Below, in pieces: positions 6,285 to 64,000 of a stretch of DNA of 64,000 bases (position 1 is the stretch's first letter; each line of letters opens with the position of its first letter). A model generated the notes under the pieces. The model was not told the DNA's origin. It searched no databases and saw only the letters and a program-made list of their open reading frames with translations. Source of the DNA: a virus; the IMG/VR virus record IMGVR_UViG_3300021364_000008, positions 1 through 64,000 of that record; one strand, given 5' to 3'. The position numbers were made by a program, and so were the translations under genes.

Positions 6285-6289
6285 AAGTT

Positions 6290-6326
6290 GGTTCTGGACT
6301 AAATAATAATAGTTTAGTCCAGAACC
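6290..6326 (+). promoter_or_regulatory. Perfect 14-bp hairpin with late promoter (CTAAATA) abutting HEG start
   Basis: GGTTCTGGACTAAA / TTTAGTCCAGAACC; TTG start at 6327. Confidence 0.75.
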
Positions 6327-33777: not shown

Positions 33778-33781
33778 GAAA

Positions 33782-38295: not shown

Positions 38296-38296
38296 T

Positions 38297-42873: not shown

Positions 42874-43509
42874 ATGACTATTAAAATACTGGATGCTGTA
42901 AAATATCATAAAGATTTACCACATCAAATAGATGCCTGGGAGTACCTACAAAAAAATATTAATGATGAAACGCTATATGAATTTGCAAGCATATACAGGA
43001 ATCTAAAAGTAGAATCGCCAACCAATAATCCTAATGAAGTACCGTTGGTTGGCGTTAATTTAATTAAAGAGTTTGAGGGGTGTCATCTGGAGGCATATCC
43101 TGACCCTCTTACAGGAGGACTCCCAATCACAATCGGTTGGGGGTCCACAAGAGACGAAAACGGAAAACCATTCAAGTTGGGTACAAAGATTTCTCAGCAA
43201 ACTGCTGACGATCTTCTCATTTCACAAATAAAGAATGAGTTTCTTCCTCCATTGACTCAGATTCCTTATTGGAATCGAATGAATATGAATCAGAGAGGAG
43301 CACTTCTCTCATTTGCATATAACTTGGGTGCAAGATTCTATGGTTCTTCTGGTTTTAATACAATCAGTAGAGTCCTGAAGAATAGACAGTGGAATAAAGT
43401 TCCTGATGCACTATATCTTTATCGTAATCCGGGAACAAATGTAGAAGCTGGATTGAAAAGGAGGAGAATTGCTGAAGGGAAACTTTTTCTGGAAGGACTT
43501 AATAAATAA
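42874..43509 (+). CDS. Phage lysozyme (GH24)
   Basis: LIKEFEG..AYPD..TIGWG, ALLSFAYNLG, GLKRRR.AE. Confidence 0.92.
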   Translation: MTIKILDAVKYHKDLPHQIDAWEYLQKNINDETLYEFASIYRNLKVESPTNNPNEVPLVGVNLIKEFEGCHLEAYPDPLTGGLPITIGWGSTRDENGKPFKLGTKISQQTADDLLISQIKNEFLPPLTQIPYWNRMNMNQRGALLSFAYNLGARFYGSSGFNTISRVLKNRQWNKVPDALYLYRNPGTNVEAGLKRRRIAEGKLFLEGLNK

Positions 43510-49607: not shown

Positions 49608-51083
49608 ATGGCGAAAAATCGCATTACATTTACTGATGATTTTGTCTTAAGAAATGAACAAGTTGGTATTGGAACGACAAATCCATTTGCAACTTTAACA
49701 GTTGTTGGTGATACTAATATTTCTGGTGTTGTAACTGCATCTTCATTTTCTGGTGATGCATTTAATGCTTATCCATTCTACTCTGGAATCACAAGTTCAG
49801 TTTTTGTATCTCCAACTGGTGTTCTCAATCCGGTTATAGAGTTTCCATCAACTGCAGATAAAAGATACATTATTCACTCAATTAATGTTGCAAATGTAGC
49901 AAGAGTTCAACCACAAGTTGCTGGTGCAACTGTTGATATTGATATGAATGCAGGTGCTGTTACATCACTTACGATTGATGGTGTTGGCGTAGGATATACT
50001 GATGGAGATCTTGGTTCTCCAAGTAATCTTAATGTTTCTTTCGCAACAACTTCTTATGTTGGTGTTGGAACTACTGGTGATCCAGCATACTCTGGTATTA
50101 CAAGTGCATTAGGTTACATTACATCAGTATCTGGTGGTGCTGTGACTGGTGTTGCAATTACTTTTGGTGGATTTGGTTATACTTCTGCTCCTGCCGTAAC
50201 TTTTGACCCACCAGCAGCAGGAGGAACCACAGAAACAGGAACAGCAGTTCTTACTCTTGGAGAAGTCACTGCAGCAAACTTGAATGTTCCTGGTGAAGGT
50301 TATACTGAACCTCCAACGGTTTCTATTGCATCAACAGCAGGAACTGGAGCAGTCATCACAGCAGATGTAGATAGTGATGGAAAGGTTATAAGACTGAATC
50401 TACTTGCACGAGGTTATGGTTATTCTACGAATAATTCTCTTGGAAATAATGAAGAAAACGAAGTTTATATTTCACAACCACCACTTGCTAAAACAGAAGT
50501 TGGTGTTGATGTAGAAATGGATCGTGTTCCTGTTGGTGGTGGAACTACTGTTGCATCATATCTTGCATTTGATGTTCCTATTCCTGTTGGTGGTGTCCTT
50601 GAAGTTCTCAAGCAACCAGCAGTAATGAATCCTGGTGATGTAATGAAAATTCGTGGTATTGATGCTGATGGTTCTGGTCTAAGTGATGCAATTGATGTAT
50701 GTATTTCTTATGAAGAAACTCACGACAATTATATTGGTTATGGAACTGCAACACCAGCAAATGTGGGTCTTGGAACCACTGTTGCAAATATTGGAATCAT
50801 AAGTGCAACAACAAATCCAGTGATGGTACAATCCATAAGACTTACAAATACCGAATTCGTTGGTGATTATGATGTCTCAGTCAAAGTCATCACAGGTGCA
50901 GGACAAACATTCTATCTTGCAAGGAATCTTATGATTCCATCATTCGCATCAGTAGAACTTTGTGATACACCAAAGAGAATTGAAGCAGGTTCTTATATAT
51001 TGATGGACGCAGAAACTGTTGGTATTGATGCGAATGAAGCAAGTACCATAGATATACAAGTATCAGGAAGACAGATTGTATGA
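49608..51083 (+). CDS. Virion structural protein
   Basis: VGIGTTNP; GxGYT..P repeats; TAAATA upstream. Confidence 0.7.
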   Translation: MAKNRITFTDDFVLRNEQVGIGTTNPFATLTVVGDTNISGVVTASSFSGDAFNAYPFYSGITSSVFVSPTGVLNPVIEFPSTADKRYIIHSINVANVARVQPQVAGATVDIDMNAGAVTSLTIDGVGVGYTDGDLGSPSNLNVSFATTSYVGVGTTGDPAYSGITSALGYITSVSGGAVTGVAITFGGFGYTSAPAVTFDPPAAGGTTETGTAVLTLGEVTAANLNVPGEGYTEPPTVSIASTAGTGAVITADVDSDGKVIRLNLLARGYGYSTNNSLGNNEENEVYISQPPLAKTEVGVDVEMDRVPVGGGTTVASYLAFDVPIPVGGVLEVLKQPAVMNPGDVMKIRGIDADGSGLSDAIDVCISYEETHDNYIGYGTATPANVGLGTTVANIGIISATTNPVMVQSIRLTNTEFVGDYDVSVKVITGAGQTFYLARNLMIPSFASVELCDTPKRIEAGSYILMDAETVGIDANEASTIDIQVSGRQIV

Positions 51084-51736
51084 GTATTTTTATAGCATTA
51101 CCTTGTTATGGCGGAGTGGTTTGTGAGAAGACCACAATGAGTTTGTTTAATCTTGGAAAACTCTTTGTAAGAGAAGGAGTACCACACGGATTATTTACAG
51201 TTGCAAATTCTTCTTTGATTAGTCAAGGAAGAAGTAAGATTGCAAACTTCTTTCTAAATAATACAGACCACGAGTACTTGTTCTTCCTTGATAGTGATAT
51301 TGGATTTGATCCAACTTCAGTATTAAAACTTCTAAGTCATCAAAAGGATATTGTCGCAGCACCTTATCCTATGAAATCAATACCATTACGATACAATTAT
51401 AAACTTGCAGTTCCAGAAGAACGACAAGGTGATCTAGTTAAAATAGAACATAATGGTATGGGATTTGTAATGATTCATCGTAAAGTATTTTATGATATTG
51501 CTGCTGCTTATCCTGAACTGAAATATTATCCATCACTTGACGATAGTAATGTAAGACCAAGTGAACAAGAATATCATAACTCTTATCATTACTTTTTGGA
51601 ACATAAGAATGGACCAAGTTTTATGCCTGAGGATATTAGTTTCTTTTGGAGAGCAAGAAGTTTAGGTTATGAATGTTGGTTAGATAAAAGTGTACATCTC
51701 TCACACACTGGATCTCACTTATTTGAGGAACGATAA
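51080..51736 (+). CDS. GT-A fold glycosyltransferase-like protein
   Basis: IALPCYGG, LFFLDSDI, GMGFVMI, PEDISF, HTG. Confidence 0.75.
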   Translation: MSIFIALPCYGGVVCEKTTMSLFNLGKLFVREGVPHGLFTVANSSLISQGRSKIANFFLNNTDHEYLFFLDSDIGFDPTSVLKLLSHQKDIVAAPYPMKSIPLRYNYKLAVPEERQGDLVKIEHNGMGFVMIHRKVFYDIAAAYPELKYYPSLDDSNVRPSEQEYHNSYHYFLEHKNGPSFMPEDISFFWRARSLGYECWLDKSVHLSHTGSHLFEER

Positions 51737-54615
51737 TGCCGCAGACTGGAGTAAGAACTAACATCTTTGGTATTGGTGAAGTTTATGAACTTCAAAGAGA
51801 AGGTCAGTGGGTAGAAAAGAATAGAGAATCTTATAGGGAGTATGGGTATTTTGGTGGATTGAGAAATGGTCTTACAACATATTCTTTTTCAACTAGAATT
51901 GATTATTCTAACGATACATCAACAGCAAATACAAGAGGAAATTTTAATTTAAATAGAAATTATATTGCAGCAACAGGAAACTCTAATTTTGGATATTTTG
52001 GTGGTGGTGGTGCTATTTCTACTATAGAAAGAATAGATTATTCTAATGATTCTGCTTTAGCTAGTATTAGAGGTCCATTAACAATAAGTAGAATTGCTGG
52101 TTCTGCAGTGGGGAACTCTAATTTTGGTTGGTTTATTTGTGGGCAAGTATCAAATGTAGATAGAGTAGATTATGCAAATGACTTAGCAACGGCATCAATA
52201 AGAGGTAATGAATTAGCAGATTTTTCCAGATATTCTTCTTTTGGTAATTCTAATTATGGTTGGAATGGTGGTGGAAATAATGCTGTATTCAATAACCCCA
52301 CATCAATGATAAGAAGAATTGATTACTCTAATGATTTAATTGCGCCAACAATTCGTGGACCATTTAATGGTTTTAGAAGATTATTTGGAGCAACAGGAAA
52401 TTCTAATTTTGGTTATGCTGGTGGTGATTTTGGTGCATCATCAAGAATTGAACGAGTTCAATATTCAAATGATTTGGTAACTGCAAGTATAAGAGGTCCA
52501 TTAAGTTCTGGACGAGGATATTTAACAGCAACTGGAAACTCCAATTTTGGATATTTTAATGGAGGTACTAATGTACCATCACCATCAGTTATAACTTATT
52601 CACTTACAGATCGCATAGATTATTCAAATGATACAGTAACTGCAAGTGTTAGAGGTTCATCTCCTGTACCTCAATCATATCATGCATCAACCTCCTCAGC
52701 ATCATTCGGTGGTGCTCCTGTTTCATATCTTGGAGCACCTTGGACTGATACAAGTCCTTTTGGGTATTTTGGTGGTGGAAACAATCCAGGAGTTCCTGCA
52801 AGTTATTCAACAATAGATCGTGTTGATTATACAAACGATACAAATACTGCAAGTGTTCGTGGTCCATTGACTGAATTAAAATATGGATTAGCAGCAACAG
52901 GAAATTCTAATTTTGGATATTTTGGTGGTGGTCTAAATCCTTTAATTACATATCCATCTACAATAGATCGTTTAGATTATTCAAATGATTCTTCTAACTC
53001 AAGTTCAAGAGGATTTTTAACCTCTGGTAGAACCATATTAGCATCGACAGGAAATTCTAACTTTGGATACTTTGGTGGAGGTTCTCTTGGAACATTATCA
53101 ACTGTAGACAGAATACAATATTCTAATGATACTGCAACTGCATCAACCAGAGGTCCATTAAGTATAGGAAGAAGACAGTTAAGTGCTACAGGAAATTCTA
53201 ATTTTGGATATTTTGGCGGAGGAACTTTTCCCGACTTTTCAACAATAGATCGCATTGATTATTCAAATGATTTATTAACTGCAAGTGCGAGAAATAATCT
53301 TCCAGAAGTACAAAGAGCACTTGCTGCTACAGGAAACTCTAATTTTGGTTATTTTGGTGGAGGTTATACTTCGTTAGTAAGACGATTGGATTATTCAAAT
53401 GATACTTTCCCAATACTTACTAGAGGTTCTATAGCATCAAGAGGTTTAATTTCTGCAACGGGGAATTCAAACTTTGGATACTTTGGTGGAGGTCAATCTG
53501 GTGCTGGACCATTATCAACAGTAGACCGCATAGATTACTCAAACGACACCCAAACAGCATCAGCAAGAGGTCCATTGAGTGTTGCAAGGCAATATTTAGC
53601 AGCAACCTCCTCACAAGCATTTGGAGGTGCTCCAAACACCACCACAGATCCATTACCTGTGTATATAAGAGATGCTACGAAGTTTGATGATTCTAATACA
53701 CTTGATTTACCATTTAAGAGAGTATTGGGGTCTTATGGGTATTTTGGTGGTGGTAGTGTTCCTTCTTTATATTCAACAGTAAATCGCATAGACTATTCTA
53801 ACGATACAACAAATGCATCTGTTAGAGGTTCATTAAGTCAAACTAGATATTCTCACCAGGCAACAGGAAATTCTAACTTTGGTTATTTTGTGGGAGGAAG
53901 AGTTGTTGCAGAACCATCACCTATTGTTTCTTCAAATGATAGAATAAATTATTCAAATGACCTTACATCATCTGTAATAAGAGGACCACTAGCATCTACA
54001 TCTTATTTTACAAATGCAATCAGTTCAAATTCTTTTGGATATTTTGATAGTTTTGGTAATATATCAAAATTTGATTATTCTAATGATAATGCTACATCAA
54101 TACAAAGGTTTGTTAGAGTTAGAAGTCAAAATAGATATGGATTGAGTGGTAATTTGAATTTTGCATATTATGCTGGAGGTGGTGCTGGTGGAGGTGGTGG
54201 TGCAGTATCATTAATAGACAGATTAAATTTCTCAAATGATAGTGGAAATTCTGTTTATAGAGGAAATCTTACTTTTAATAAAAGTGAAACATCAAGTGTT
54301 GGAAATGATAATTTTGGATATGTTGGTGGTGCAAGAAGTCCAAGTCCAACTACCATAACTGCTGTTGATAGAATTGATTATTCAAATGATACAGCAACAG
54401 CAATTTTTAGATTTAATTTAGATAGATTTAGAAATGCCTCAACAGGAAATTCTAACTTTGGATATTTTGCTATGGGTGCTGTAACTGCTGGAAATAGTGT
54501 AAATTCGCAGATATATCGTTTAGATTATTCAAATGATACTTCTGTGGTTGTGAGATCAAACACAACTTATTCTTCTTGGTTTGCAAGAGGAACAACCAAC
54601 GCAAGATCCTCATAA
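51736..54615 (+). CDS. Kelch-like repeat protein 1 (3 x 6 blades)
   Basis: 18 copies of GNSNFGYFGGG..DRIDYSND..RGPL in three groups separated by linkers. Confidence 0.85.
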   Translation: MPQTGVRTNIFGIGEVYELQREGQWVEKNRESYREYGYFGGLRNGLTTYSFSTRIDYSNDTSTANTRGNFNLNRNYIAATGNSNFGYFGGGGAISTIERIDYSNDSALASIRGPLTISRIAGSAVGNSNFGWFICGQVSNVDRVDYANDLATASIRGNELADFSRYSSFGNSNYGWNGGGNNAVFNNPTSMIRRIDYSNDLIAPTIRGPFNGFRRLFGATGNSNFGYAGGDFGASSRIERVQYSNDLVTASIRGPLSSGRGYLTATGNSNFGYFNGGTNVPSPSVITYSLTDRIDYSNDTVTASVRGSSPVPQSYHASTSSASFGGAPVSYLGAPWTDTSPFGYFGGGNNPGVPASYSTIDRVDYTNDTNTASVRGPLTELKYGLAATGNSNFGYFGGGLNPLITYPSTIDRLDYSNDSSNSSSRGFLTSGRTILASTGNSNFGYFGGGSLGTLSTVDRIQYSNDTATASTRGPLSIGRRQLSATGNSNFGYFGGGTFPDFSTIDRIDYSNDLLTASARNNLPEVQRALAATGNSNFGYFGGGYTSLVRRLDYSNDTFPILTRGSIASRGLISATGNSNFGYFGGGQSGAGPLSTVDRIDYSNDTQTASARGPLSVARQYLAATSSQAFGGAPNTTTDPLPVYIRDATKFDDSNTLDLPFKRVLGSYGYFGGGSVPSLYSTVNRIDYSNDTTNASVRGSLSQTRYSHQATGNSNFGYFVGGRVVAEPSPIVSSNDRINYSNDLTSSVIRGPLASTSYFTNAISSNSFGYFDSFGNISKFDYSNDNATSIQRFVRVRSQNRYGLSGNLNFAYYAGGGAGGGGGAVSLIDRLNFSNDSGNSVYRGNLTFNKSETSSVGNDNFGYVGGARSPSPTTITAVDRIDYSNDTATAIFRFNLDRFRNASTGNSNFGYFAMGAVTAGNSVNSQIYRLDYSNDTSVVVRSNTTYSSWFARGTTNARSS

Positions 54616-54642
54616 ATACTCACAACTACATTATCATACACA

Positions 54643-55722
54643 ATGACTATATCAGGTGCAACTGAAACCTCATACGAATATCTTTACGAACACTTTCAAC
54701 CATCACAAGATATTCATATTTCTCATCTTCCACAAGAACTTAAGACCTCAACAAAACCAATTAAGATTCTGTGGGCACATCACGCATACGATCAACAGGT
54801 TTATCAAAACTTCTCACACGAACAAGTTACTCATATCGTAACACCATCAAACTGGGCGAAACAAACACTATCTCATTTTCATAAAATACCAGAGAATAAG
54901 ATCTCAGTCATTCCAAATGGTGTAGATACTCAATATACTTATTCAAACCAAAAACAAAAACAACTGATATATACCTCAATACCTTATAAGGCACTACCAG
55001 TCTTAGCAGCAGTGATTCCTTTGGTACATTCAATTCATCCTGATGCAAAGTTTAAAATCTTTTCATCTATGAGTCTTTATGGTCCACAGAATGATCCTTT
55101 TATTGAACTTTACGATCACCTGAAGACTCTACCAAATGTAGAATACTCAAGGGCAATTGATCGTCAACAACTGATTCAACATTACCAAGAATCTGCATTC
55201 TTTATCAGTCCTTGTATCTGGGAAGAGACTTTTGGTGTTGCTATGTGTGAAGCAATGAGATGTGGTGCATATCCTATCATCACAGACATTGGAGCACTGG
55301 AAGAAGTTGCAGGACCCAATCTTGCAACAGTAGTTCCTATTGAAGGTCAAAGAACTACACAAGGTTATGAAGTCACAGAACGATTTGTGAAGCAGTTTGC
55401 AGAAGCAACTTGTGTAGCATTAGATTACTTTGATAAAGACAGAAAGACTTATGATGAGGTCTCTAAGTCTTGTAGTGATTGGGTTACAAAGCAATATGAT
55501 TGGAAGACTATTGCAGGACTATGGAAGAATCTTACAAAGTCATTACAGGGGCATACAGACACCTCTAGTGAGGTGACTACACCGAACGGAGCGACTGTAA
55601 GGAGCGGTGGTGTTGGATTTGCAAATAAGATCGTAGAAAGAAAAGGTGAGACTTATGTAGAAGATAAGGTAGTAGAAAGTTCGGTTGGGGGTTACTTCAA
55701 CTTTGATAAATACAACAGATGA
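54643..55722 (+). CDS. Glycosyltransferase family 4 (GT-B)
   Basis: VIPNGVD, YTS.P.K, EETFGVAMCEAM..G, GALEE. Confidence 0.85.
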   Translation: MTISGATETSYEYLYEHFQPSQDIHISHLPQELKTSTKPIKILWAHHAYDQQVYQNFSHEQVTHIVTPSNWAKQTLSHFHKIPENKISVIPNGVDTQYTYSNQKQKQLIYTSIPYKALPVLAAVIPLVHSIHPDAKFKIFSSMSLYGPQNDPFIELYDHLKTLPNVEYSRAIDRQQLIQHYQESAFFISPCIWEETFGVAMCEAMRCGAYPIITDIGALEEVAGPNLATVVPIEGQRTTQGYEVTERFVKQFAEATCVALDYFDKDRKTYDEVSKSCSDWVTKQYDWKTIAGLWKNLTKSLQGHTDTSSEVTTPNGATVRSGGVGFANKIVERKGETYVEDKVVESSVGGYFNFDKYNR

Positions 55723-55748
55723 ATAAACACATAGGAATTTGGAGTTTT

Positions 55749-56654
55749 ATGTCTATTTTACCTGAAAACAGTCTTGGTCTTCGTTCTATTGAAGAATTTT
55801 CTCAAGATAAAGATAAAGCAACAGAATACTTGAAGTCAGCATTTGATAATGTCTATAAGTACCACAAACAAGATTGTGAACTCGCTCAGGGTCGTACAAA
55901 CTTTCAGTTAGAGAAGTTTGCTCTTCTTGAGACTTATACACCAGAAACTGCTTACGAAAGTGTTCTCAAGTCTAGAAAACAAATGGGAGAGGGTTTGCTC
56001 ACACTCCTGTTAGATCTCGCTGGGGAAGTAAGATCTTTTGAATATCGTTGGAAAGATAAGGATAAAAATGAACCTATTTTCTGGGAAGAAGCAGCACCCG
56101 CTGGTGGTTCTGGTAAAAAGTTGCTTTGGTTTGATCTTGATGAAATGAGATTGGTTCATAGATTAAAGTCAGCAGAACTTGAGGTTCGTGATCGTCTTTA
56201 TCAAATGGAGCACTTAGAAAAAATGCTTCTTAAATTAAGAGAACAACTAGGTGGGGACTTGAGTAGGGAAAGATTCTTGGAAGCTGAACACAAATATTGG
56301 GAGATTCGCTTCGCAGAGCAATCGGCGGATGAAATTTTGAGTCGTGAAACGGGAATTTCAATCGGCAATATTCATAGTATGAGAAGAGCATCTGCACCTT
56401 CACTTGTTGATGATAGAAATCAATTGAAAGAAGGTTACTTACCAATTACTAAGATGCTTGAGAGTCCACAAGGAAGAATGGAATTTCTTGGAGACCTTCA
56501 ACGCAAAATTGCTGAAGGTTATGAAAATGTAATGGATATTGATCTTGGAACTGGTAGATTTATTCCTGCAGCAGAAAGAAACAAACTTCGTCAACAAAAA
56601 GAACAAGGACAAATTTCTGGTTCTCCAGAAAACACTGAGATTGTTGAGGAATAA
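55749..56654 (+). CDS. Helical hypothetical protein
   Basis: GRTNFQLEKF, KYWEIRF; ATAAA and GGAG upstream of Met 55749; function unknown. Confidence 0.7.
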   Translation: MSILPENSLGLRSIEEFSQDKDKATEYLKSAFDNVYKYHKQDCELAQGRTNFQLEKFALLETYTPETAYESVLKSRKQMGEGLLTLLLDLAGEVRSFEYRWKDKDKNEPIFWEEAAPAGGSGKKLLWFDLDEMRLVHRLKSAELEVRDRLYQMEHLEKMLLKLREQLGGDLSRERFLEAEHKYWEIRFAEQSADEILSRETGISIGNIHSMRRASAPSLVDDRNQLKEGYLPITKMLESPQGRMEFLGDLQRKIAEGYENVMDIDLGTGRFIPAAERNKLRQQKEQGQISGSPENTEIVEE

Positions 56655-56687
56655 ATAATATCGTTCGTGAACCGACAACCAGAACAT

Positions 56688-56716
56688 AAGGACGGGATTT
56701 ACTCTTGTCCTTTTTT
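56688..56716 (+). terminator. Intrinsic terminator
   Basis: AAGGACGGGA/TCTTGTCCTT + T-run. Confidence 0.7.
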
Positions 56717-56748
56717 AATATCTAAATACACCAGAATATAATGATGAA

Positions 56749-57237
56749 ATGAAACATAAGATCCAAATTATAGACAACTTCCTTGACGAACCACTGACCT
56801 ACAAGAACTCCAAAGACCCCAACGCAACACAAGAAATCTCAAATAAGATCGCTCATATCCTCCAAGCAAACATAAAACTCTCCTCATCCTCAAACACACC
56901 AAATCAAATCTTTGCTGATTACTCTTGTGATTTTATTGCGATGCTTTATTTGGACTTTCCAACAGAATGTGTGAATAAAAAAGCAGTATCATTTTGGATG
57001 CATAAAGAAACACAAGATGAAGAACTACCAAATGAAACTAAATTGAAATGGTTAGGACTTCAAAGTGTTGAAGAAATTGAGAAGTGTTATGATGTAAGTA
57101 AAGTTGAGGACTGGGAGAGGTATATGAGTTATTATATCAAATATAATCGCCTGATATTATTTGATGCGAAGATGTTTCATTCCTATGGTGATGAGAGTGA
57201 TTGTAGGAAATTTAATATAGAGATAAATAATTTATAA
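56749..57237 (+). CDS. DUF6445-like (2OG-oxygenase fold) protein, degenerate
   Basis: IIDNFL, YNRLILFD..FHS; lacks the HxD seen in its paralog. Confidence 0.65.
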   Translation: MKHKIQIIDNFLDEPLTYKNSKDPNATQEISNKIAHILQANIKLSSSSNTPNQIFADYSCDFIAMLYLDFPTECVNKKAVSFWMHKETQDEELPNETKLKWLGLQSVEEIEKCYDVSKVEDWERYMSYYIKYNRLILFDAKMFHSYGDESDCRKFNIEINNL

Positions 57238-57255
57238 TAGAGTTTCTGTGTCTAA

Positions 57256-60162
57256 ATGTCTGGAATATTTGGTCTTTCTGCTTATAACGATCAAAACTTA
57301 GCAGGTCTTATACCAGATAAGACCAGAGAATCCTTTAGGGAGTATGGGTATTTTGGAGGTGGAAATGCTCCAGGAAATGTATCAACAGTAGACCGAATAG
57401 ATTACTCTAACGACACAGCAACAGCATCAGTTAGAGGTCCATTAGATATTATTAAAAGAAATGTGGAAGCAACAGGAAACTCTAACTTTGGTTATTTTGG
57501 TGGAAGTTTACCACTAAGATCAACAGTAGACCGCATAGATTACTCTAACGACACAGCAACAGCATCAGTTAGAGGTCCATTAAGTCAAGAAAAATATTCT
57601 TCTTCTGCATCTGGAAATTCAAATTTCGGTTGGTTTACTGGAGGACATACAAATGACAATATAATAGATATTAATTTTTCAATTTCAACAATAGATCGTA
57701 TTGATTATTCAAATGATTTATCTACTGCTTCTATAAGAGGAAATTTAAATCAAAATAGAACTAATCATAGTATTGCTGGAAATTCAAATTATGGATGGAT
57801 TGCTGGAGGAAATCTTGCAGTAAATGATTCTCCATTTTTTACTTCTGTTGAAAGATTGGATTATTCAAATGATGTTTCATTAACATCATTTAGATCCACA
57901 TCAAATGATATATCAGGTCAAGGTAATAGTGCGACAGGAAATAATAATTTTGGATATTATCATAGAGCAAATTTTCCTGCAGGAACTAATAGAACAGATT
58001 TGCAGCGTATTGATTATTCTAATGATTTAATTAGTCCAACATTGAGAGGCAATTTAACTTTACTTATTACTGGTAGGGCAGCATCTGGAAACTCTAACTT
58101 TGGTTATTTTAGTGGTGGATCATTAGTTCCAGCAGGTTATGAGCCTAACTCTTCGGTTGAAAGAATAGATTATTCTAACGACACCACAATAGCATCAGTT
58201 AGAGGTCCATTATCTTCTGCAAGGTCTTCATTAGCAGCAACCTCCTCACACAGTTTCGGTGGATCTCCAATCTCACAATACGGAGTGTTTCCAAAACCTT
58301 TTGGGTATTTTGGAAATAATGCAAATTTTTCAAGATTTGATTTCTCAAATGATACATCAGCATCCGTAAGTAGAACATCAATTTCTGGAGTTGTACTTGT
58401 AGCAAAAGCAACAGGAAATTCAAATTATGCCTGGATTGGTGGAGGATTATTTTCAGTAAGTTCCAAAGTATATCGTTTTGATTATTCAAATGATAATGCT
58501 GGTGGAGTACAAAGAGGACCATTAAGTGCTGCAAGAGGATCTTTTGCAGCAACTGGAAATTATAACTTTGGATATTTTAGTGGTGGAATAGATCCTGGAG
58601 TCCCACCAAAGTATTCAATAGTAGACCGCATTGATTACTCAAATGATAATGTAACTGCTTTAAGAAGAGGTTCCCTGAGTGCAGTAAATTATAACCATAC
58701 TGGAGTTTCAAATTTAAGTTATGCTTACTTTATTGGTGGAGGTGATGGACCAACAACAAAAACTTGGGTAGAAAGAATCAATTATTCTAATGATAATGCC
58801 TCAACATCTTATAGATCACCATTACAAAATTCAAGACGACTTCTTGCATCTTCAGGGAATTCTAATTTTGCATATGTTTCTGGAGGAGATGTTGGTGGAG
58901 TAGTAAATTCTATTGTAGAACGAATTGATTATGCAAGTGATACTTCTGCAACAAGTATTCGTGGACCATTAAGTTTAGCAAGAGCTGGATTTGCAGGAAC
59001 AGGAAATTCTAATTTTGGTTATTTTGGTGGTGGTGGTGCTCCTGGACTAGTATCAACAGTAGACCGCATAGATTATTCCAATGATACTGCAACTGCAACT
59101 GCAAGAACTACAAATACTTTTAGTGATGTAGTAGATTATGGTATTTCTCCACTCACACCAAGCAGTGCATTCTCACCAGACCAACTAATTAGAGGAACAT
59201 CAAACACTGACTTCCAACCAACTTCAACATTCTTTGATATTCAGTCAATGAGAAGAATTGAAGATACTACAAATGAAAGTGTGAAGAAGAGAGTGTTGGG
59301 GTCTTATGGGTATTTTGGTGGTGGTTTAAGTCCAGATGTATCAACAGTAGAAAGAATTGATTATTCCAATGATAATTCTTCTGGTTTAATTAGAGGACCA
59401 CTATCTGGAATAAAAAGACAACCAACAGGAGTTGGAAATAATAATTTTGGTTATATAGTTGCTGGTGGAATTTCTTCACCATCATTCGTATCATTAATAG
59501 AAAGAATTGACTATTCAAATGATTCTGTAAATACATCTATAAGAGGAAATATTGATAGATCTGTGGTTTCTGCATTTTCGGTTGGAAATGAAAAATATGG
59601 GTATATTGCTGGTGGATTTTTATACAATTCAAGAGTCCAAAGAATAGATTATTCTAATGATAATTCAACACCGACTATTAAAGGATCTTTAAATAAATTG
59701 ACTGCTGGTGCTGGAGCAGCAGGAAATAACAATTTTGGGTATTTTGGTGGTGGTGGAGATGCGTCTATTTATACTTCTATAGTAGAAAGAATTAATTATT
59801 CTAATGATTCAATTAAACCTTCAATTAGAGGTCCATTAAGTTTAGCAAGAAGTAGATTGGGAGCAACAGGAAATAACAATTTTGGGTATTTTGGTGGAGG
59901 TAGAAGTTCTGTAGATACTTCAATTATAGAAAGAATAGATTATTCCAATGATACTGTATTAGCATCTGTAAGATCAAATTTAGTTTTACCATCATATGCA
60001 GTATCTTCTACAGGAAATTCAAACTTTGGATACTTTATTGGGTTTCCATTTTTTAGTACACATAGATTAGATTACAATAATGATACAAATAATACTATTC
60101 TAAGAGGCGCTTTATCAGCTGTAAGATATAGAGCAGCAACAACCAACGCAAGAAACTCCTAA
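57256..60162 (+). CDS. Kelch-like repeat protein 2 (3 x 6 blades)
   Basis: 18 repeats; same RESFREYGY start and TTNAR end as protein 1. Confidence 0.85.
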   Translation: MSGIFGLSAYNDQNLAGLIPDKTRESFREYGYFGGGNAPGNVSTVDRIDYSNDTATASVRGPLDIIKRNVEATGNSNFGYFGGSLPLRSTVDRIDYSNDTATASVRGPLSQEKYSSSASGNSNFGWFTGGHTNDNIIDINFSISTIDRIDYSNDLSTASIRGNLNQNRTNHSIAGNSNYGWIAGGNLAVNDSPFFTSVERLDYSNDVSLTSFRSTSNDISGQGNSATGNNNFGYYHRANFPAGTNRTDLQRIDYSNDLISPTLRGNLTLLITGRAASGNSNFGYFSGGSLVPAGYEPNSSVERIDYSNDTTIASVRGPLSSARSSLAATSSHSFGGSPISQYGVFPKPFGYFGNNANFSRFDFSNDTSASVSRTSISGVVLVAKATGNSNYAWIGGGLFSVSSKVYRFDYSNDNAGGVQRGPLSAARGSFAATGNYNFGYFSGGIDPGVPPKYSIVDRIDYSNDNVTALRRGSLSAVNYNHTGVSNLSYAYFIGGGDGPTTKTWVERINYSNDNASTSYRSPLQNSRRLLASSGNSNFAYVSGGDVGGVVNSIVERIDYASDTSATSIRGPLSLARAGFAGTGNSNFGYFGGGGAPGLVSTVDRIDYSNDTATATARTTNTFSDVVDYGISPLTPSSAFSPDQLIRGTSNTDFQPTSTFFDIQSMRRIEDTTNESVKKRVLGSYGYFGGGLSPDVSTVERIDYSNDNSSGLIRGPLSGIKRQPTGVGNNNFGYIVAGGISSPSFVSLIERIDYSNDSVNTSIRGNIDRSVVSAFSVGNEKYGYIAGGFLYNSRVQRIDYSNDNSTPTIKGSLNKLTAGAGAAGNNNFGYFGGGGDASIYTSIVERINYSNDSIKPSIRGPLSLARSRLGATGNNNFGYFGGGRSSVDTSIIERIDYSNDTVLASVRSNLVLPSYAVSSTGNSNFGYFIGFPFFSTHRLDYNNDTNNTILRGALSAVRYRAATTNARNS

Positions 60163-60189
60163 TAAATACCTCAAACAACCCACTACATA

Positions 60190-60813
60190 ATGAGACGCTC
60201 TATCATAATACTTGACGATTTCCACGAGAATCCACAAGAAGTCCGTAACTACGCAATATCTGCAGAGTACTCCAAAGAAGAAACTGCAACTTTTCCAGGA
60301 TCAAACTCAACAACAGGTTTCCAAGAAGACCTACTAAAATCAAAGATAGAATCAATTCTTCAAAGACCCATAAAACCCTCAAATACTTTTGGATACTTTA
60401 GATATTCTTGGGAAACATCCAATCAAGAAAATCCAAAACTCCAAAAAGTTCATGTTGATAATGGATGGGAGTTTGGTGGAGTTTGTTACTTATCAACACC
60501 AGAACAACTCAAAGATAATCCAGATTCGGGAACATTATTCACAAGACATAAGATCTTAAAGACAGACGCAACACCAAGAACCAAAGAAGAAGCAGAACTC
60601 TTTGGTTATACTCATTATGATGAGTTAAGACAATCAATCATTTATGGTGATGGATTAGACTTGGATAAGTGGGAGGTGTATGCTCGTTGTTTGCCTAAGT
60701 TCAATCGTTTAGTCTTATTCCGTGCTTGGATGTATCATAGTCATTTTGTAAATTTTGGTCCAAAAGATCCAGCACAAAGTCGTCTAGTTCAATTATTCTT
60801 TTTTAATACTTGA
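60190..60813 (+). CDS. DUF6445-like 2OG-Fe(II) oxygenase
   Basis: ILDDF..P, HVD, GVCYL, FNRLVLF..YHS, RLVQLFF. Confidence 0.78.
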   Translation: MRRSIIILDDFHENPQEVRNYAISAEYSKEETATFPGSNSTTGFQEDLLKSKIESILQRPIKPSNTFGYFRYSWETSNQENPKLQKVHVDNGWEFGGVCYLSTPEQLKDNPDSGTLFTRHKILKTDATPRTKEEAELFGYTHYDELRQSIIYGDGLDLDKWEVYARCLPKFNRLVLFRAWMYHSHFVNFGPKDPAQSRLVQLFFFNT

Positions 60814-60815
60814 TT

Positions 60816-61661
60816 ATGCACTATTCATACTATTTTATGTCTGGGTTGCCCAGGAGTGGTTCTACACTCTTAAGATCCATATTAAATCAAAATGAGTCCA
60901 TATACAGTGGACCAATCTCACCATCAGTAGAACTCCTCTACTACACAGACAAATACTTTCAATCCAGTGAGATGTTACTTGCATCACCAAATCCTCAAGG
61001 TTGTTATGATGTTCTATCCAATATGATGGATCACTTCTATCATAATATAATGGAGAAAGAAGGTAAATCAAAAATCATAGAATTCAATAGAGCAATTCCA
61101 AATAACATTGAACGATTTAGAACTTATATTAAAGATGATGTAAGAATTGTATGTCCTGTAAGAAGTATACCAGAAATCCTTGCAAGTTTTATTAGTTTGA
61201 TTCACAAAAATAGTGATAAGGTTTCATTTGTGGATCAGTATTTGATTGATAAAGGTATTGAAGTGAATGATGATACTCGTTGTGATTACTTGATGAGTGA
61301 TTATGGTATTGTCGGTCAGGCATTATTTGCGATGAGTCGTCCATATTTGAGAAACGAACAGAGTCTATTGAAGATCGTTGAGTATGATGACCTTGTAGAG
61401 AATACTGATAAAGTAATGGAAGAGATCTATGACTTCTGGGGATTAGAGAAGTATTCGCATAGCTATGAGAACTTAGAGAATACTTATCCAGAGAATGATA
61501 TTTTTCAGTATAATTTAGATGGGATGCATACGATTGGTAGAACAATTAAGAAGACTTGTAAGAAACCAGAAGAAGTCTTAAGTAAGGAGATCATTGAAAA
61601 GTATAGTGGTATGGAATTTTGGAGAACTGATTGTAGTAATAAGTATTATCTTACGATCTAA
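60816..61661 (+). CDS. Sulfotransferase family protein
   Basis: PAPS-binding SGLPRSGSTLL, CPVR..ILAS, VEYDDLV. Confidence 0.88.
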   Translation: MHYSYYFMSGLPRSGSTLLRSILNQNESIYSGPISPSVELLYYTDKYFQSSEMLLASPNPQGCYDVLSNMMDHFYHNIMEKEGKSKIIEFNRAIPNNIERFRTYIKDDVRIVCPVRSIPEILASFISLIHKNSDKVSFVDQYLIDKGIEVNDDTRCDYLMSDYGIVGQALFAMSRPYLRNEQSLLKIVEYDDLVENTDKVMEEIYDFWGLEKYSHSYENLENTYPENDIFQYNLDGMHTIGRTIKKTCKKPEEVLSKEIIEKYSGMEFWRTDCSNKYYLTI

Positions 61662-61689
61662 TAAATAATCAATAAAGTGTCTAAAACTG

Positions 61690-64000
61690 ATGGCGGACAA
61701 TAAAAATATTCAAAAAGTGTTTGGTCTTAGTGATTATCGCAAACTTCAATTAACATCTAAAATACCTGAGAGAGGTAGAGAATCCTTCAGGGAGTATGGA
61801 TACTATTCAATGGGTGCTCCTTTTGGGCAACATGGTTTTACTAATGTCTATCGGTTAGATTTTACAAATGATACTAATATATTAAATATTCATAATTATT
61901 TAAATATTAGACGCAGTTTAGCAGCAGCAGCAGGAAACTCTAACTCTGGATATTTTGGTGGTGGTTCTTTTGGACAATCAATATCATCAATAGAACGAAT
62001 AGACTATGCAAATGATGTTGCAACTCCATCATTTAGAGGTCCATTAAGTTTAGCAAGATCTAGATTAGCAGCAACAGGAAACTCCAATTTTGGTTATTTT
62101 GCTGGGGGAATGATTTCAGAATCATCTAATAATACATCAAGAACAGATAGAATTAATTATTCAAATGATTTAGCAACTGCAGCAATAAGAGGTCCATTAT
62201 CATTCGCCAGGCAATCGGTGGGTGCAGCATTTTCTAATAGTAAATATGGTTATTTTACTGGGGGGTCATTAGTACAATATTATGCTCCAGTATTTTCTAC
62301 AATTGAAAGAATAGATTATTCCAATGATATTTTTTTACCATCAATTAGGGGTCCTTTAAGTTCTGCAAGAAGATACGCAGCAGGAATTGGAAATTTAAAT
62401 TATGGATATTCTGGTGGAGGAAGAAATACTCCAGCCAATGCTATATCTTTAGTAGATCGCATTGATTACTCAAATGATACGGCACAATCAAGTCCAAGAG
62501 GTAATTTAGTCCGGGCAAGAACTAATCTTGGTGCAACAGGAAATTCTAATTTTGCTTGGTTTATGGGTGGATTTTCCTCAATGATTGATAGAGTAGATTA
62601 TGCAAATGATACAATAACTTCAACAAGTAGAGGAAGATTAGATAGTAGTTTATATGGCGGACAAGCAACCTCCTCACACAGTTTCGGTGGATCTCCAAAC
62701 TCTTCATTTGCCTCTAACTTTACATTTCCTACTGTTCCTAATGCTGGGTATTTTGGTGGTGGTACTATTCCAGGACCAGCAGTAACAGCAAGTATTGATA
62801 AAGTAGATTATGCAAATGATACAGCAACTGCAAGTGTTCGTAGTGCTTTGAGTGTTGCAAGAAACTCAATTGGTTCTATTGGTAATAATTCTTTTGGTTA
62901 TTTTGCTGGTGGATTTATTCCAAGTCCAGCAACATTTTCAACAATAGATCGCATAGAATATTCAAGTGATACACAAAACACAATAACAAGAGGTCCATTA
63001 AGTTCTTCTAAAGGACAAATATCTGGTACAGGAAACTCAAACTTTGGTTATTTTGGTGGTGGTACTCCTGGACCAAGATCAACAGTAGACCGCATAGACT
63101 ACTCTAACGACTCAGCAACAGTAAGTGTTAGAGGTCCATTAAGTTTAGCAAAAAGATATTTTTCAACATTAAGTAATTTTAATTTTGGTTATAATTGCGG
63201 TGGTTATGTTCCTGCCGGAAATGCATCAAATGTAGACCGCATAGATTACTCCAATGATACAGCAACAGCATTAGCAAGAGGACCACTACAATCAGTATCA
63301 TCACATACAAGCGGAGGTGCAGGAAATATTAATTTTGGTTATGCATTTAATGGAATTTTTGGTGGAGATAGATCAATTATAAATCGCATAGATTATTCTA
63401 ACGATACTCAAACAGCATCAGTAAGAGGTCCTTTAAGTACATATTCTGCATTTAGAGCGATGACTGGAAGTTCCAGTTTTGGATATGTTGGTGGTGGTGA
63501 TGCAATATCAACAATAGACCGTATCAACTTCTCAAACGATACTGCAATCGCACAAGTAAGAGGACCACTACCAGTTGCTAAAAGTAGTGGAGCAGCAACC
63601 TCACCACTTGCTTATGGTGGTGCTCCAATTTATTTCACCAATCCACTTCCACAAGTCTTCCAGGACCAGATTGAGTTTGATGATTCTAATACACTTGATT
63701 TACCATTTAAGAGAGTGTTGGGGTCTTATGGGTATTTTGGTGGAGGTTCTTCTATTCTAAGTAGAATAGATTTTTCAAATGATTTAGCAACTTCATCAAG
63801 TAGATCTGTTGTTGTGATTACTAGTGATGAAGCATATGCAGGAACTGGGAATAATAATTTTGGTTATTTTGGTGGTGGGTATTTTTCTGCATTGGGAACT
63901 TCTACAGTAGGAAGAGTTGATTATTCTAATGATAATGCTATTTGTTCTATAAGAGGACCACTTACAACATCACTACGATTACAATCTGCATCAGGTACAA
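61690..64000 (+). CDS. Kelch-like repeat protein 3 (runs off window; absent from ORF track)
   Basis: ATG 61690 after ATAAATA; MADNKNIQKVFGLS..RESFREYGY; two 6-blade modules plus start of a third. Confidence 0.85.
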   Translation, partial: MADNKNIQKVFGLSDYRKLQLTSKIPERGRESFREYGYYSMGAPFGQHGFTNVYRLDFTNDTNILNIHNYLNIRRSLAAAAGNSNSGYFGGGSFGQSISSIERIDYANDVATPSFRGPLSLARSRLAATGNSNFGYFAGGMISESSNNTSRTDRINYSNDLATAAIRGPLSFARQSVGAAFSNSKYGYFTGGSLVQYYAPVFSTIERIDYSNDIFLPSIRGPLSSARRYAAGIGNLNYGYSGGGRNTPANAISLVDRIDYSNDTAQSSPRGNLVRARTNLGATGNSNFAWFMGGFSSMIDRVDYANDTITSTSRGRLDSSLYGGQATSSHSFGGSPNSSFASNFTFPTVPNAGYFGGGTIPGPAVTASIDKVDYANDTATASVRSALSVARNSIGSIGNNSFGYFAGGFIPSPATFSTIDRIEYSSDTQNTITRGPLSSSKGQISGTGNSNFGYFGGGTPGPRSTVDRIDYSNDSATVSVRGPLSLAKRYFSTLSNFNFGYNCGGYVPAGNASNVDRIDYSNDTATALARGPLQSVSSHTSGGAGNINFGYAFNGIFGGDRSIINRIDYSNDTQTASVRGPLSTYSAFRAMTGSSSFGYVGGGDAISTIDRINFSNDTAIAQVRGPLPVAKSSGAATSPLAYGGAPIYFTNPLPQVFQDQIEFDDSNTLDLPFKRVLGSYGYFGGGSSILSRIDFSNDLATSSSRSVVVITSDEAYAGTGNNNFGYFGGGYFSALGTSTVGRVDYSNDNAICSIRGPLTTSLRLQSASGT

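What the first reader, a model, noticed from the sequence alone, without database searches (positions are those of the whole stretch)
51080..64000. Triple-propeller proteins interleaved with a modification toolkit: candidate virion-surface display and decoration system
Seen: three paralogs (two complete at about 960 aa with 3x6 Kelch-like blades, one truncated by the window). The framework is near-invariant, while the loops after GGG vary and are often Pro/Ser/Thr-rich (NVPSPS, AEPSP, RSPSPT). Many blades contain N-D-T/S. The genes alternate with a GT-A enzyme, a GT4, two 2OG-oxygenase-fold proteins (one lacking HxD), a sulfotransferase and an unknown helical protein. Most follow TAAATA late promoters, downstream of the fibre genes. 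Inference: multivalent adhesins that are hydroxylated, glycosylated and sulfated by dedicated neighbours. I know of no characterised phage system like this.
Basis: partly seen in the sequence, partly recalled or inferred. Interest (0 to 1): 0.8.

Follow-up and report, generated by a model that had tools for sequence, protein, structure and literature searches.

The report
Cyanophage triple-propeller proteins with tailoring enzymes
Behind its tail-fibre genes, a T4-like virus of marine cyanobacteria encodes three fast-evolving proteins, each a string of three six-bladed Kelch propellers. They alternate with conserved hydroxylase, sugar-adding and sulfate-adding enzymes that probably decorate the virus's own host-binding parts, but no chemistry shows this yet.

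Summary
Three paralogs (959, 968 and 973 aa; the third ends 611 bases past the window) each have 18 repeats in 6+6+6. They fold as three Kelch-type six-bladed propellers (Keap1 TM 0.87). The framework is conserved (0.83) and the loops after GGG are hypervariable (0.21) and Pro-rich.

The interleaved genes are an A197-like GT-A, a GT4 with a coiled-coil partner, an intact and a degenerate DUF6445, and a TPST-like sulfotransferase. A prolyl-hydroxylase-family gene follows just outside the window. All are served by TAAATA late-promoter-like sites or overlap the gene upstream.

The cassette recurs in more than 40 uncultured cyanophage contigs, in AG-345-L05 and AG-345-O18, and in Synechococcus phage S-SKS1. 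Among 50,697 phage records, close enzyme orthologs occur only in propeller carriers.

Corrections:
- The N-D-T motif is a framework turn, not a conserved sequon.
- Ser and Thr are not enriched in the loops.
- One-propeller variants arise by recombination inside a propeller gene, so co-loss of the enzymes is mechanical.

Virion location and every modification remain inferred. No paper found describes this module. This scan has already reported the same cassette in at least nine other genomes.

The parts
49608..51083 (+). Fibre-like structural gene (491 aa) that heads the unit. The GT-A gene and propeller A overlap it and each other by 1-4 nt.
   Evidence: PHROG hits to virion structural, tail-fibre and baseplate-wedge families over residues 168-277. 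TAAATA at -31. A homolog precedes the cassette in nearly all loci.
51080..51736 (+). GT-A-fold glycosyltransferase (218 aa) with a D-S-D motif
   Evidence: phrog_1574 at 3e-29. The DxD region aligns to GlfT2. The family profile hits PDB 2c0n A197 at 6.3e-7. 86-97% identical across loci.
51736..54615 (+). Propeller A: 959 aa, 18 blades, three six-bladed Kelch-type propellers
   Evidence: phrog_19111 at 3.5e-114.
54613..54618 (+). TAAATA late-promoter-like core that overlaps the stop codon of propeller A, 30 nt before the GT4 gene
   Evidence: The same N-A-R-(N/S)-S-stop plus TAAATA junction follows propellers B and C.
54643..55722 (+). GT4-family (GT-B) glycosyltransferase, 359 aa, with an EX7E motif
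   Evidence: Pfam Glycos_transf_1 46 bits (cut-off 26.4), Glyco_trans_1_4 and Glyco_transf_4. Motif conserved in 16 orthologs.
55719..56654 (+). U311: helical coiled-coil protein with a beta-hairpin, an accessory partner of the GT4 enzyme
   Evidence: No Pfam or PHROG hit. 68 representative clusters in 1.84 billion proteins; in four of them (P0126, P0128, P0131, P0144) the domain is fused C-terminal to a GT4 domain. Model pLDDT 85.7. The core resembles prefoldin beta only weakly (Z 7.2).
56688..56712 (+). Terminator-like hairpin (10-bp stem followed by a T run) after the GT4-U311 pair
56749..57237 (+). Short, degenerate DUF6445-like protein (162 aa) without the HxD metal motif; probably not catalytic
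   Evidence: Pfam DUF6445 20.7 bits, below the cut-off of 24. No conserved HxD in 16 orthologs. TAAATA at -26.
57256..60162 (+). Propeller B: 968 aa, 18 blades
   Evidence: TAAATA at -32.
60190..60813 (+). DUF6445 protein (207 aa) with invariant H-V-D ... H-S-H ... R; a candidate 2OG/Fe(II) oxygenase, tightly coupled to the sulfotransferase gene
   Evidence: Pfam DUF6445 43.3 bits (cut-off 24). Invariant H88, D90, H183, H185 and R198. The Atlas names its cluster phytanoyl-CoA-dioxygenase-like. The fold was not confirmed by hhalign or a PDB profile search.
60810..61661 (+). Sulfotransferase (283 aa) with the PAPS-binding P-R-S-G-S-T loop and an R...S motif
   Evidence: Pfam Sulfotransfer_3 44.9 bits (cut-off 27). 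With a family profile the nearest solved structures are the protein-tyrosine sulfotransferases TPST1 and TPST2, at 7e-10 to 6e-8.
61690..64000 (+). Propeller C, cut by the window. It is complete in the record at 973 aa (to position 64611). A prolyl-hydroxylase-family gene follows at 64638-65288, then a conserved 181-aa unknown.

Best explanation
This is a late-expressed accessory module at the far end of the tail-fibre gene block of a T4-like cyanophage (Kyanoviridae-like).

The three propeller proteins are most likely appendage or adhesin proteins of the virus particle. Each carries three Kelch-type six-bladed propellers. The loops between strands B and C (after G-G-G) and between D and A form, by Kelch topology, the ligand-binding face. 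These loops evolve very fast, as expected for host recognition.

The interleaved soluble enzymes most likely form a dedicated cytoplasmic tailoring pathway for these proteins, or for them together with the neighbouring fibres, before assembly:
- A prolyl-hydroxylase-family enzyme and a DUF6445 oxygenase-like enzyme would add hydroxyl groups. The Pro-rich, Pro-Gly-enriched loops are the obvious target.
- The GT-A enzyme and the GT4 enzyme with its coiled-coil partner would add sugars.
- The TPST-like sulfotransferase would add sulfate, using host PAPS.

Shown: gene content, fold, catalytic motifs, promoter-like signals, conserved linkage, phyletic co-occurrence, and fast propeller evolution against slow enzyme evolution.

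Inferred: virion location, the substrate, and the order of reactions.
For: Fold and repeat anatomy.

Hypervariable loops in a constant frame. Against the window's orthologs, propellers are 44-48% identical while the flanking enzymes are 80-95%. For comparison, homologs of the genes that S-SKS1 annotates as ssDNA-binding protein (gp32-like) and helicase loader (gp59-like) are 58% and 48%, though in only two loci.

The cassette order fibre, GT-A, propeller, GT4, U311, short DUF6445, propeller, DUF6445, sulfotransferase, propeller, P4H is kept in dozens of contigs. The same families stay interleaved in other orders in L012, AG-345-L05, AG-345-O18 and S-SKS1, where the propellers are only 24-45% identical to these.

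In 50,697 phage records the propeller family hits only S-SKS1 and AG-345-L05; AG-345-O18 carries a divergent copy. U311 hits only S-SKS1 and AG-345-L05. The sulfotransferase above 40% and P4H above 45% hit only S-SKS1, AG-345-L05 and AG-345-O18. GT-A above 33% hits only AG-345-L05.

GT4-U311 fusions exist. Catalytic motifs are intact in five enzymes.

Nearest solved relatives: P4H to prolyl 3- and 4-hydroxylases; the sulfotransferase to protein-tyrosine sulfotransferases; GT-A to viral A197.

67% of 1,049 loops carry Pro, and the dipeptide P-G occurs 238 times against 69 expected.

Late-promoter-like TAAATA sites or gene overlaps serve every gene, and the stop-codon junction after each propeller doubles as the promoter-like site of the next enzyme gene.

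No enzyme and no propeller has a membrane-like segment or a signal-like N-terminus.

Precedents: the Kelch protein CBB_552 is a virion component of phage CBB (PMC5259590), and a TolB-annotated protein was found in the virion proteome of S-SCSM2R, with homologs in the virion proteomes of other cyanophages (PMC12801897). S-SRM01 carries an analogous arrangement around RCC1-like propellers.
Against: - No proteomic, structural or biochemical datum places these proteins in a virion or shows any modification.
- Most loci are close relatives, so much of the synteny is inherited.
- One-propeller variants arose by recombination inside a propeller gene (100% identity over two domains, then unrelated). 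The enzymes lost with the extra propellers therefore say little about function.
- The phage carries a second, larger sugar gene cluster at 32.7-41.6 kb, as other cyanophages do. That is often read as modification of the host envelope.
- DUF6445 is not shown to be an oxygenase.
- Pro-Gly is also a plain turn former.
- No PAPS-making gene was found in the record, which is 47% complete.
Confidence: 0.5

Rival explanations
1. The propellers are virion adhesins, but the enzymes work on something else: host envelope glycans or polysaccharide, or other fibre proteins. The genes sit together only because this is a recombination-prone accessory island under late control.
For: A large separate sugar cluster lies at 32.7-41.6 kb, with epimerases or dehydratases and GT11, GT2, GT15 and GT25 genes. 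Homing-endonuclease-like genes are inserted in the cassette in other phages. Domain-level recombination and a 10-kb indel separate otherwise identical phages. A collagen-like tail fibre is encoded elsewhere in the record.
Against: Close orthologs of U311, the sulfotransferase, P4H and GT-A occur only in propeller-carrying records among 50,697 phage records. Sugar clusters and collagen-like fibres are widespread in cyanophages (from general knowledge of the group). Interleaving survives rearrangement and deep divergence. The collagen-like fibre has Pro in G-P-Q, not in the X-Pro-Gly context. The sulfotransferase is nearest to protein, not carbohydrate, sulfotransferases among solved structures.
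Confidence: 0.25
2. The propellers are not virion parts. They are intracellular or lysis-released binding proteins, such as Kelch-type adaptors, scaffolds or lectin-like decoys, that work with the enzymes on host targets during late infection.
For: In cellular proteins Kelch propellers are mostly protein-interaction adaptors (top fold matches Keap1 and KLHL12). No domain known to attach to a virion was recognised. There are no proteomic data.
Against: Propeller A is translationally coupled to a fibre-like gene, and the cassette lies within the tail-fibre block under late-promoter-like sites. Extreme diversification of one face fits an extracellular arms race better than an intracellular target. 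A conserved N-terminal helix precedes the first propeller.
Confidence: 0.12
3. The enzymes make a modified peptide or other secondary metabolite, as Iyer et al. proposed for the tandem dioxygenase clusters of cyanophages. The propellers are unrelated neighbours.
For: PMC2938197 reads cyanophage dioxygenase arrays as secondary-metabolite genes.
Against: No peptide synthetase, halogenase or precursor-peptide gene lies in the cassette. The enzymes track the propeller family phyletically.
Confidence: 0.05

Closest known systems
Predicted bacterial 'hydroxylate then sulfate' operons: 2OG dioxygenases plus sulfotransferase with collagen-like or phage tail-collar proteins (Iyer, Abhiman, de Souza and Aravind 2010, PMC2938197)
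   Same: An oxygenase-like gene sits directly next to a sulfotransferase, and both are co-encoded with a repetitive structural protein taken to be the substrate. The DUF6445 cluster is auto-named phytanoyl-CoA-dioxygenase-like, one of the families in those operons.
   Different: The system here is in a phage. The candidate substrate is a Kelch propeller array, not a collagen-like or tail-collar protein. Two glycosyltransferases and a prolyl-hydroxylase-family enzyme are added. No PAPS synthetase was found in the record. Both systems are predictions only.
Virion glycosylation by phage-encoded glycosyltransferases in mycobacteriophages (Freeman et al. 2023, as cited in PMC12801897; see also PMC11256854)
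   Same: Phage-encoded glycosyltransferases lie beside structural genes and are proposed or shown to glycosylate the phage's own virion proteins in the cytoplasm.
   Different: In mycobacteriophages the substrates are capsid and tail-tube proteins (from my own knowledge of that paper, which is not held in the library). There are no hydroxylases, no sulfotransferase and no propellers, and the hosts and phages are unrelated.
Kelch-repeat six-bladed propellers (Keap1, KLHL12) and the Kelch-domain virion protein CBB_552 of jumbo phage CBB (PMC5259590)
   Same: Six four-stranded blades, a G-G doublet after strand B, and a conserved Tyr and Arg. TM 0.84-0.88 and rmsd 2.2-2.6 A to Keap1 and KLHL12. 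A Kelch protein has been found in a phage virion by mass spectrometry.
   Different: No Pfam Kelch model matches at E 0.01. Three propellers are strung in one chain, and relatives carry two, four or five. There is no BTB/BACK part. No sequence relation to CBB_552 was tested.
Cytoplasmic hydroxyproline glycosylation of Skp1 in Dictyostelium and Toxoplasma, and the prolyl 4-hydroxylase of chlorovirus PBCV-1 (both from my own knowledge; PBCV-1 P4H is PDB 5c5t, matched at E 0.005)
   Same: A soluble prolyl-hydroxylase-family enzyme is paired with soluble glycosyltransferases that could extend a sugar chain on hydroxyproline. There is a viral precedent for an encoded P4H.
   Different: No homology beyond the enzyme superfamilies. 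The substrate here is unproven. Those systems have no sulfotransferase.
Synechococcus phage S-SRM01: RCC1-like propeller genes beside a 2OG oxygenase, a sulfotransferase and a glycosyltransferase
   Same: The theme is the same: repeat beta-propeller proteins interleaved with a 2OG oxygenase, a sulfotransferase (31% identical to this one) and sugar enzymes, close to fibre-like genes in a Kyanoviridae phage.
   Different: The propellers are RCC1-like and show no BLAST similarity to the Kelch-type family here (no hit at E 0.001). The system is uncharacterised and is not discussed in the phage's paper (PMC8557907).

Membership tests
Kelch-type six-bladed beta-propeller | Six four-stranded antiparallel blades around a central axis | tested here: met
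   The AlphaFold model has three all-beta domains. Foldseek matches Keap1 and KLHL12 Kelch domains at TM 0.84-0.88 and rmsd 2.2-2.6 A over about 295 residues.
Kelch-type six-bladed beta-propeller | Match to curated Kelch sequence models | tested here: not met
   No Pfam family at E 0.01 for any of the three proteins. A few metagenomic homologs carry precomputed PF24681 or PF13964 hits. The proteins are Kelch-like in fold and motif pattern (G-G doublet, Tyr, Arg) but form a separate sequence family, PHROG 19111.
Prolyl hydroxylase family (2OG-FeII_Oxy_3), for the gene just past the window | H-x-D ... H metal triad, a 2OG-binding Arg, and a Pfam match above cut-off | tested here: met
   PF13640 66.6 bits against a cut-off of 27. 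H-I-D, a distal His and an Arg are invariant in 7 orthologs. The profile hits P3H1, Bacillus P4H and collagen P4H.
Prolyl hydroxylase family (2OG-FeII_Oxy_3) | Hydroxylation of peptidyl proline | not testable with these tools
   This needs an enzyme assay or mass spectrometry.
PAPS-dependent sulfotransferase (Sulfotransfer_3, TPST-like) | 5'-phosphosulfate-binding loop P-R-S-G-(S/T)-T, a 3'-phosphate-binding R...S motif, and a Pfam match above cut-off | tested here: met
   PF13469 44.9 bits against a cut-off of 27. The motifs are conserved in 21 orthologs. The profile hits TPST1 and TPST2 at 7e-10 to 6e-8.
Protein-tyrosine sulfotransferase | Sulfation of Tyr in an acidic context of a protein substrate | not testable with these tools
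   The match to TPST covers mainly the PAPS-binding parts. The invariant D-Y of each blade is a framework Tyr and probably buried. This is a lead only.
GT-A glycosyltransferase | A DxD motif in a Rossmann-like fold, related to known GT-A enzymes | tested here: met
   An F-L-D-S-D motif is conserved. The profile hits PDB 2c0n A197 at 6.3e-7 and the DxD region of GlfT2. No Pfam hit at 0.01.
GT4 (GT-B) glycosyltransferase | Glycos_transf_1 domain with an EX7E motif | tested here: met
   Pfam 46 bits against a cut-off of 26.4. E-E-T-F-G-V-x-M-C-E is conserved.
2OG/Fe(II) oxygenase, for the two DUF6445 proteins | Double-stranded beta-helix fold with H-x-D ... H | tested here: inconclusive
   The 207-aa protein has invariant H-V-D, H-S-H and R, but hhalign against the P4H profile gives probability 0.1% and there is no PDB hit. 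The Atlas auto-name is phytanoyl-CoA-dioxygenase-like. The 162-aa protein lacks HxD and falls below the Pfam cut-off.
'Hydroxylate then sulfate' operons (Iyer et al. 2010) | A 2OG hydroxylase next to a sulfotransferase, with a co-encoded repetitive structural protein | tested here: met
   The DUF6445 and sulfotransferase genes overlap or abut, and they are adjacent in nearly all loci, separated at most by an inserted endonuclease-like gene. A propeller gene follows.
'Hydroxylate then sulfate' operons (Iyer et al. 2010) | A PAPS synthetase in the neighbourhood (present in several of those operons) | tested here: not met
   No APS-kinase match in the 99-kb record, which is only 47% complete. Host PAPS would be needed.
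Diversity-generating retroelement target | A reverse transcriptase and template repeat near the variable gene | tested here: not met
   No RVT_1 match in the record. The record is incomplete.
Phage virion protein (structural) | Presence in purified particles | not testable with these tools
   Only context is available: late-promoter-like sites, coupling to a fibre-like gene, and a position in the fibre block.

The most novel reading that the evidence does not exclude
These cyanophages run their own multi-step protein-tailoring pathway in the host cytoplasm: proline and other hydroxylation, glycosylation, and the first phage-encoded protein sulfation. The pathway would write a chemical layer onto hypervariable Kelch-propeller receptor-binding proteins, so host range would be set by loop sequence together with enzyme-added groups.
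Probability: 0.35. Interest if true: 0.85.

Novelty: new variant of a known kind. Interest (0 to 1): 0.62.

Why it matters
T4-like cyanophages are a major cause of mortality in Prochlorococcus and Synechococcus, yet little is known about what sets their host range.

The propeller family has more than 1,000 metagenomic relatives with two to five propellers per chain. Their loops diverge far faster than the rest of the genome, which makes them strong candidates for a recognition device.

If the conserved enzymes really tailor these proteins, this would be the first case of phage-encoded protein hydroxylation and sulfation, and a new kind of virion glycosylation. It would also give a testable example of the 'hydroxylate then sulfate' systems predicted in 2010.

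S-SKS1, a cultured phage of Synechococcus WH7803, carries the module, so the question can be tested directly at the bench.

Tried and rejected
Neighbourhoods therefore came from the search for related loci and from phage records.
- Megablast of the region against the phage collection found nothing.
- A scan of 185,579 species genomes found no cellular relative of the propeller family.
- U311: there was no usable Atlas hit, no PDB sequence hit with a profile and no Foldseek match at E 0.001. The prefoldin-beta-like core (Z 7.2) stands barely above coiled-coil background, so it is not used as a function call.
- DUF6445 as a 2OG fold: hhalign against the P4H profile failed and so did the PDB profile search.
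- N-glycosylation at N-D-T was considered and set aside. Sequon counts are near compositional expectation, and the Asn is replaced by Thr or Ser in the AG-345 propellers.
- Tyr sulfation of the invariant D-Y was considered. That Tyr corresponds to the framework Tyr of Kelch repeats, so it is kept only as a lead.
- P4H acting on the collagen-like fibre was considered. The fibre has G-P-Q repeats and lacks X-Pro-Gly, and this P4H lineage tracks the propellers, not collagen-like fibres.
- A DGR was considered; no reverse transcriptase is present.
- A shared N-terminal attachment motif in other proteins of the record was sought by a simple pattern and not found. The pattern also missed this phage's own propeller C, so the result says little.
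- Literature searches for S-SKS1, S-SRM01, cyanophage plus Kelch, sulfotransferase or beta-propeller found no description of this module.

Full report
**Setting.** The window is the first 64 kb of a 99-kb IMG/VR virus record that CheckV rates 47% complete. It has 29-37% G+C. It carries T4-type replication genes and ribonucleotide reductase, whose closest relatives are in Synechococcus myoviruses (82% to Sf-FS3). Its genes downstream of the finding are syntenic with those S-SKS1 annotates as NrdC, exonuclease, gp33, gp59 and gp32. It is therefore a T4-like cyanophage.

**Observation.**
- The three large proteins are 959, 968 and 973 aa. The third runs to record position 64611.
- Each has exactly 18 anchors of the R-I-D-Y-S-N-D type, 42-57 residues apart, with long linkers after repeats 6 and 12.
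- An AlphaFold model built on 36 homologs (pLDDT 77.6) shows three all-beta domains joined by low-confidence linkers at 323-340 and 630-663.
- Foldseek aligns single domains to Kelch propellers of Keap1 and KLHL12 with TM 0.84-0.88 and rmsd 2.2-2.6 A, and aligns the whole chain to multi-propeller receptors such as LRP. In BFVD the best hits are S-SKS1 and other phage Kelch-like proteins.
- No Pfam Kelch model matches. The proteins belong to PHROG 19111, of unknown function.

**Constant frame, variable loops.**
- Over the 36-protein alignment, the R-I-D-Y-S-N-D and G-N-S-N-F-G-Y-F-G-G-G segments have column conservation of 0.83-0.84. The loops after G-G-G score 0.21 and hold most of the indels.
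- By Kelch topology (established knowledge of the fold) these are the B-C loops. Together with the moderately variable D-A loops (0.49) they form the ligand-binding face.
- Pro is fourfold enriched in these loops (14.6% against 3.7%). Ser and Thr are not enriched.
- In 1,049 loops from 86 distinct proteins, 67% contain Pro. It peaks at loop positions 2-4, and P-G occurs 238 times against 69 expected.
- The proteins are very poor in Lys, Glu, Cys, Met and His.
- The N-D-T/S motif sits in the invariant turn after strand C. It is a sequon in 31 of 54 blades. Total sequon counts are near compositional expectation. In the distant AG-345 propellers the Asn is often Thr or Ser. I read it as a structural turn rather than a glycosylation signal.

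**The enzymes.**
- GT-A (51080-51736) has a conserved D-S-D motif, and its family profile hits the viral protein A197 (PDB 2c0n) at 6e-7. From my own knowledge, A197 is the GT-A glycosyltransferase of Sulfolobus turreted icosahedral virus.
- GT4 (54643-55722) passes the Pfam cut-offs and keeps EX7E.
- The unknown 311-aa protein has only 68 representative clusters among 1.84 billion proteins. In four of them it is fused behind a GT4 domain, so it is a partner of that enzyme. Its confident model (pLDDT 85.7) is a coiled coil with a beta-hairpin. The likeness to prefoldin beta is weak.
- The 207-aa DUF6445 protein has invariant H-V-D, H-S-H and R, and its cluster is auto-named phytanoyl-CoA-dioxygenase-like. 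I could not confirm the fold.
- The sulfotransferase has both PAPS-binding motifs. With a family profile it is nearest to the protein-tyrosine sulfotransferases among solved structures, at 7e-10.
- Just past the window lies a 2OG-FeII_Oxy_3 gene with a full H-x-D...H...R set. Its nearest solved relatives are all prolyl hydroxylases.
- None of these proteins has a membrane-like or signal-like segment.

**Expression signals.**
- TAAATA lies 26-34 nt before the starts at 54643, 56749, 57256, 60190 and 61690, and before the four fibre-like genes upstream. The remaining cassette genes overlap the gene upstream by 1-4 nt.
- The motif occurs 119 times on this strand in 99 kb, so chance placement in such a narrow span before so many genes is very unlikely.
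- After each propeller, the conserved C-terminal N-A-R-(N/S)-S codons, the TAA stop and the TAAATA motif form one junction. That junction precedes GT4, DUF6445 and P4H respectively.
- A terminator-like hairpin follows the GT4-U311 pair.

**Linkage.**
- Loci fetched from IMG/VR and from metagenomes give the same order in dozens of contigs: fibre, GT-A, propeller, GT4, U311, short DUF6445, propeller, DUF6445, sulfotransferase, propeller, P4H, a 181-aa unknown, NrdC.
- In L012, AG-345-L05, AG-345-O18 and S-SKS1 the order differs and the propellers are only 24-45% identical to these, yet the same enzyme families remain interleaved.
- Among 50,697 phage records the propeller family hits only S-SKS1 and AG-345-L05, and AG-345-O18 has a divergent copy. 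Close orthologs of U311, the sulfotransferase, P4H and GT-A are confined to these same records.
- A tree of 41 full-length propellers shows three largely position-specific clades, with a few swaps.
- Against the window, enzymes are 80-95% identical (U311 57%). Propellers are 44-48%. The gp32-like and gp59-like genes, seen in only two loci, are 58% and 48%.

**A caution.** The one-propeller variant (L015) is 100% identical to propeller A of a three-propeller phage (L021) over its first two domains. Its third domain is unrelated to any copy sampled. That variant is a recombinant at a domain linker. The loss of the enzymes together with the extra propellers is therefore a mechanical by-product, not evidence of function.

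**Interpretation.** The best reading, with confidence about 0.5, is a late accessory module in which propeller arrays serve as host-binding appendages and the neighbouring enzymes tailor them in the cytoplasm.
- Supporting precedents: a Kelch protein in the virion of phage CBB (PMC5259590); a TolB-annotated protein in cyanophage virion proteomes (PMC12801897); and the prediction by Iyer et al. that 2OG hydroxylases and sulfotransferases modify co-encoded tail-collar or collagen-like proteins (PMC2938197).
- S-SRM01 shows the same theme around unrelated RCC1-like propellers.
- Rivals: the enzymes act on host glycans or on other fibres; the propellers are not in the virion; or the enzymes make a small molecule.
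- No tool here can show virion location or any modification.

**Novelty.** I found no paper that describes this module. Earlier notes of this scan report the same cassette in at least nine other genomes, with similar readings. I tested the shared claims here independently, so those notes are not counted as evidence. I rate the finding a new variant of a known kind, namely virus-encoded tailoring of the virus's own structural proteins. The sulfation and hydroxylation steps would be unprecedented for a phage if true.

Noticed in passing
window 32725-41560: A second sugar gene cluster: two NAD-dependent epimerase/dehydratases, GT11 (fucosyltransferase-type), GT2, DUF5672, GT15 (alpha-1,2-mannosyltransferase-type) and GT25, with several unknowns between them. 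It could supply or extend the glycans used by the cassette, or act on the host envelope.
   Followed up: partly
window 41644-42468 and 42874-43509: An S-layer-homology (SLH) domain protein and a phage lysozyme lie between the sugar cluster and the fibre genes.
   Followed up: no
window 44272-45591 and 46436-48361: One fibre-like gene has a weak match to the N-terminal domain of the Bordetella phage major tropism determinant (Mtd_N, 25.1 bits, just under the cut-off). Another fibre gene ends in a Peptidase_S74 intramolecular chaperone domain. No reverse transcriptase is present in the record.
   Followed up: partly
record positions 66079-66444 and 66446-67681 (L009:5080-5445 and 5447-6682): Downstream of the cassette lie a 121-aa fragment with a Cas12f1/TnpB-like TNB domain and a fused GT2 glycosyltransferase-methyltransferase.
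   Followed up: no
   Followed up: no
L015:9992-12844 against L021:4501-7419: Two phages share a propeller gene that is 100% identical over its first two propeller domains and unrelated in the third. They also differ by a 10-kb block holding two more propellers and five enzymes. This is a recent recombination at a domain linker.
   Followed up: yes
L078 (Synechococcus phage S-SRM01, NC_070963.1 223780-238538): Two RCC1-like seven-repeat propeller genes are interleaved with a TPR protein, a 2OG oxygenase, a sulfotransferase, a glycosyltransferase and an epimerase, next to fibre-like genes. This is an analogous module built on an unrelated propeller.
   Followed up: partly
L011 (S-SKS1, NC_020851.1): The GenBank annotation leaves a propeller-coding stretch unannotated (locus 4876-6183). 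It splits the prolyl-hydroxylase-family gene into two CDS, and several propeller genes are short or interrupted. This may be an assembly problem in repeats, or real decay.
   Followed up: partly
record positions 65329-65874 (L009:4330-4875): A conserved 181-aa unknown always follows the P4H gene. It has one hydrophobic stretch near residue 115 and its own TAAATA sites.
   Followed up: no
cassette enzymes against core genes, loci L015-L018 and L021: The GT-A, DUF6445, sulfotransferase and P4H genes are 79-94% identical to the window's copies. In the same contigs the gp32-like, gp59-like and exonuclease-like genes are only 48-58% identical. This suggests recent exchange of the cassette between phages, or unusually strong constraint.
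   Followed up: partly
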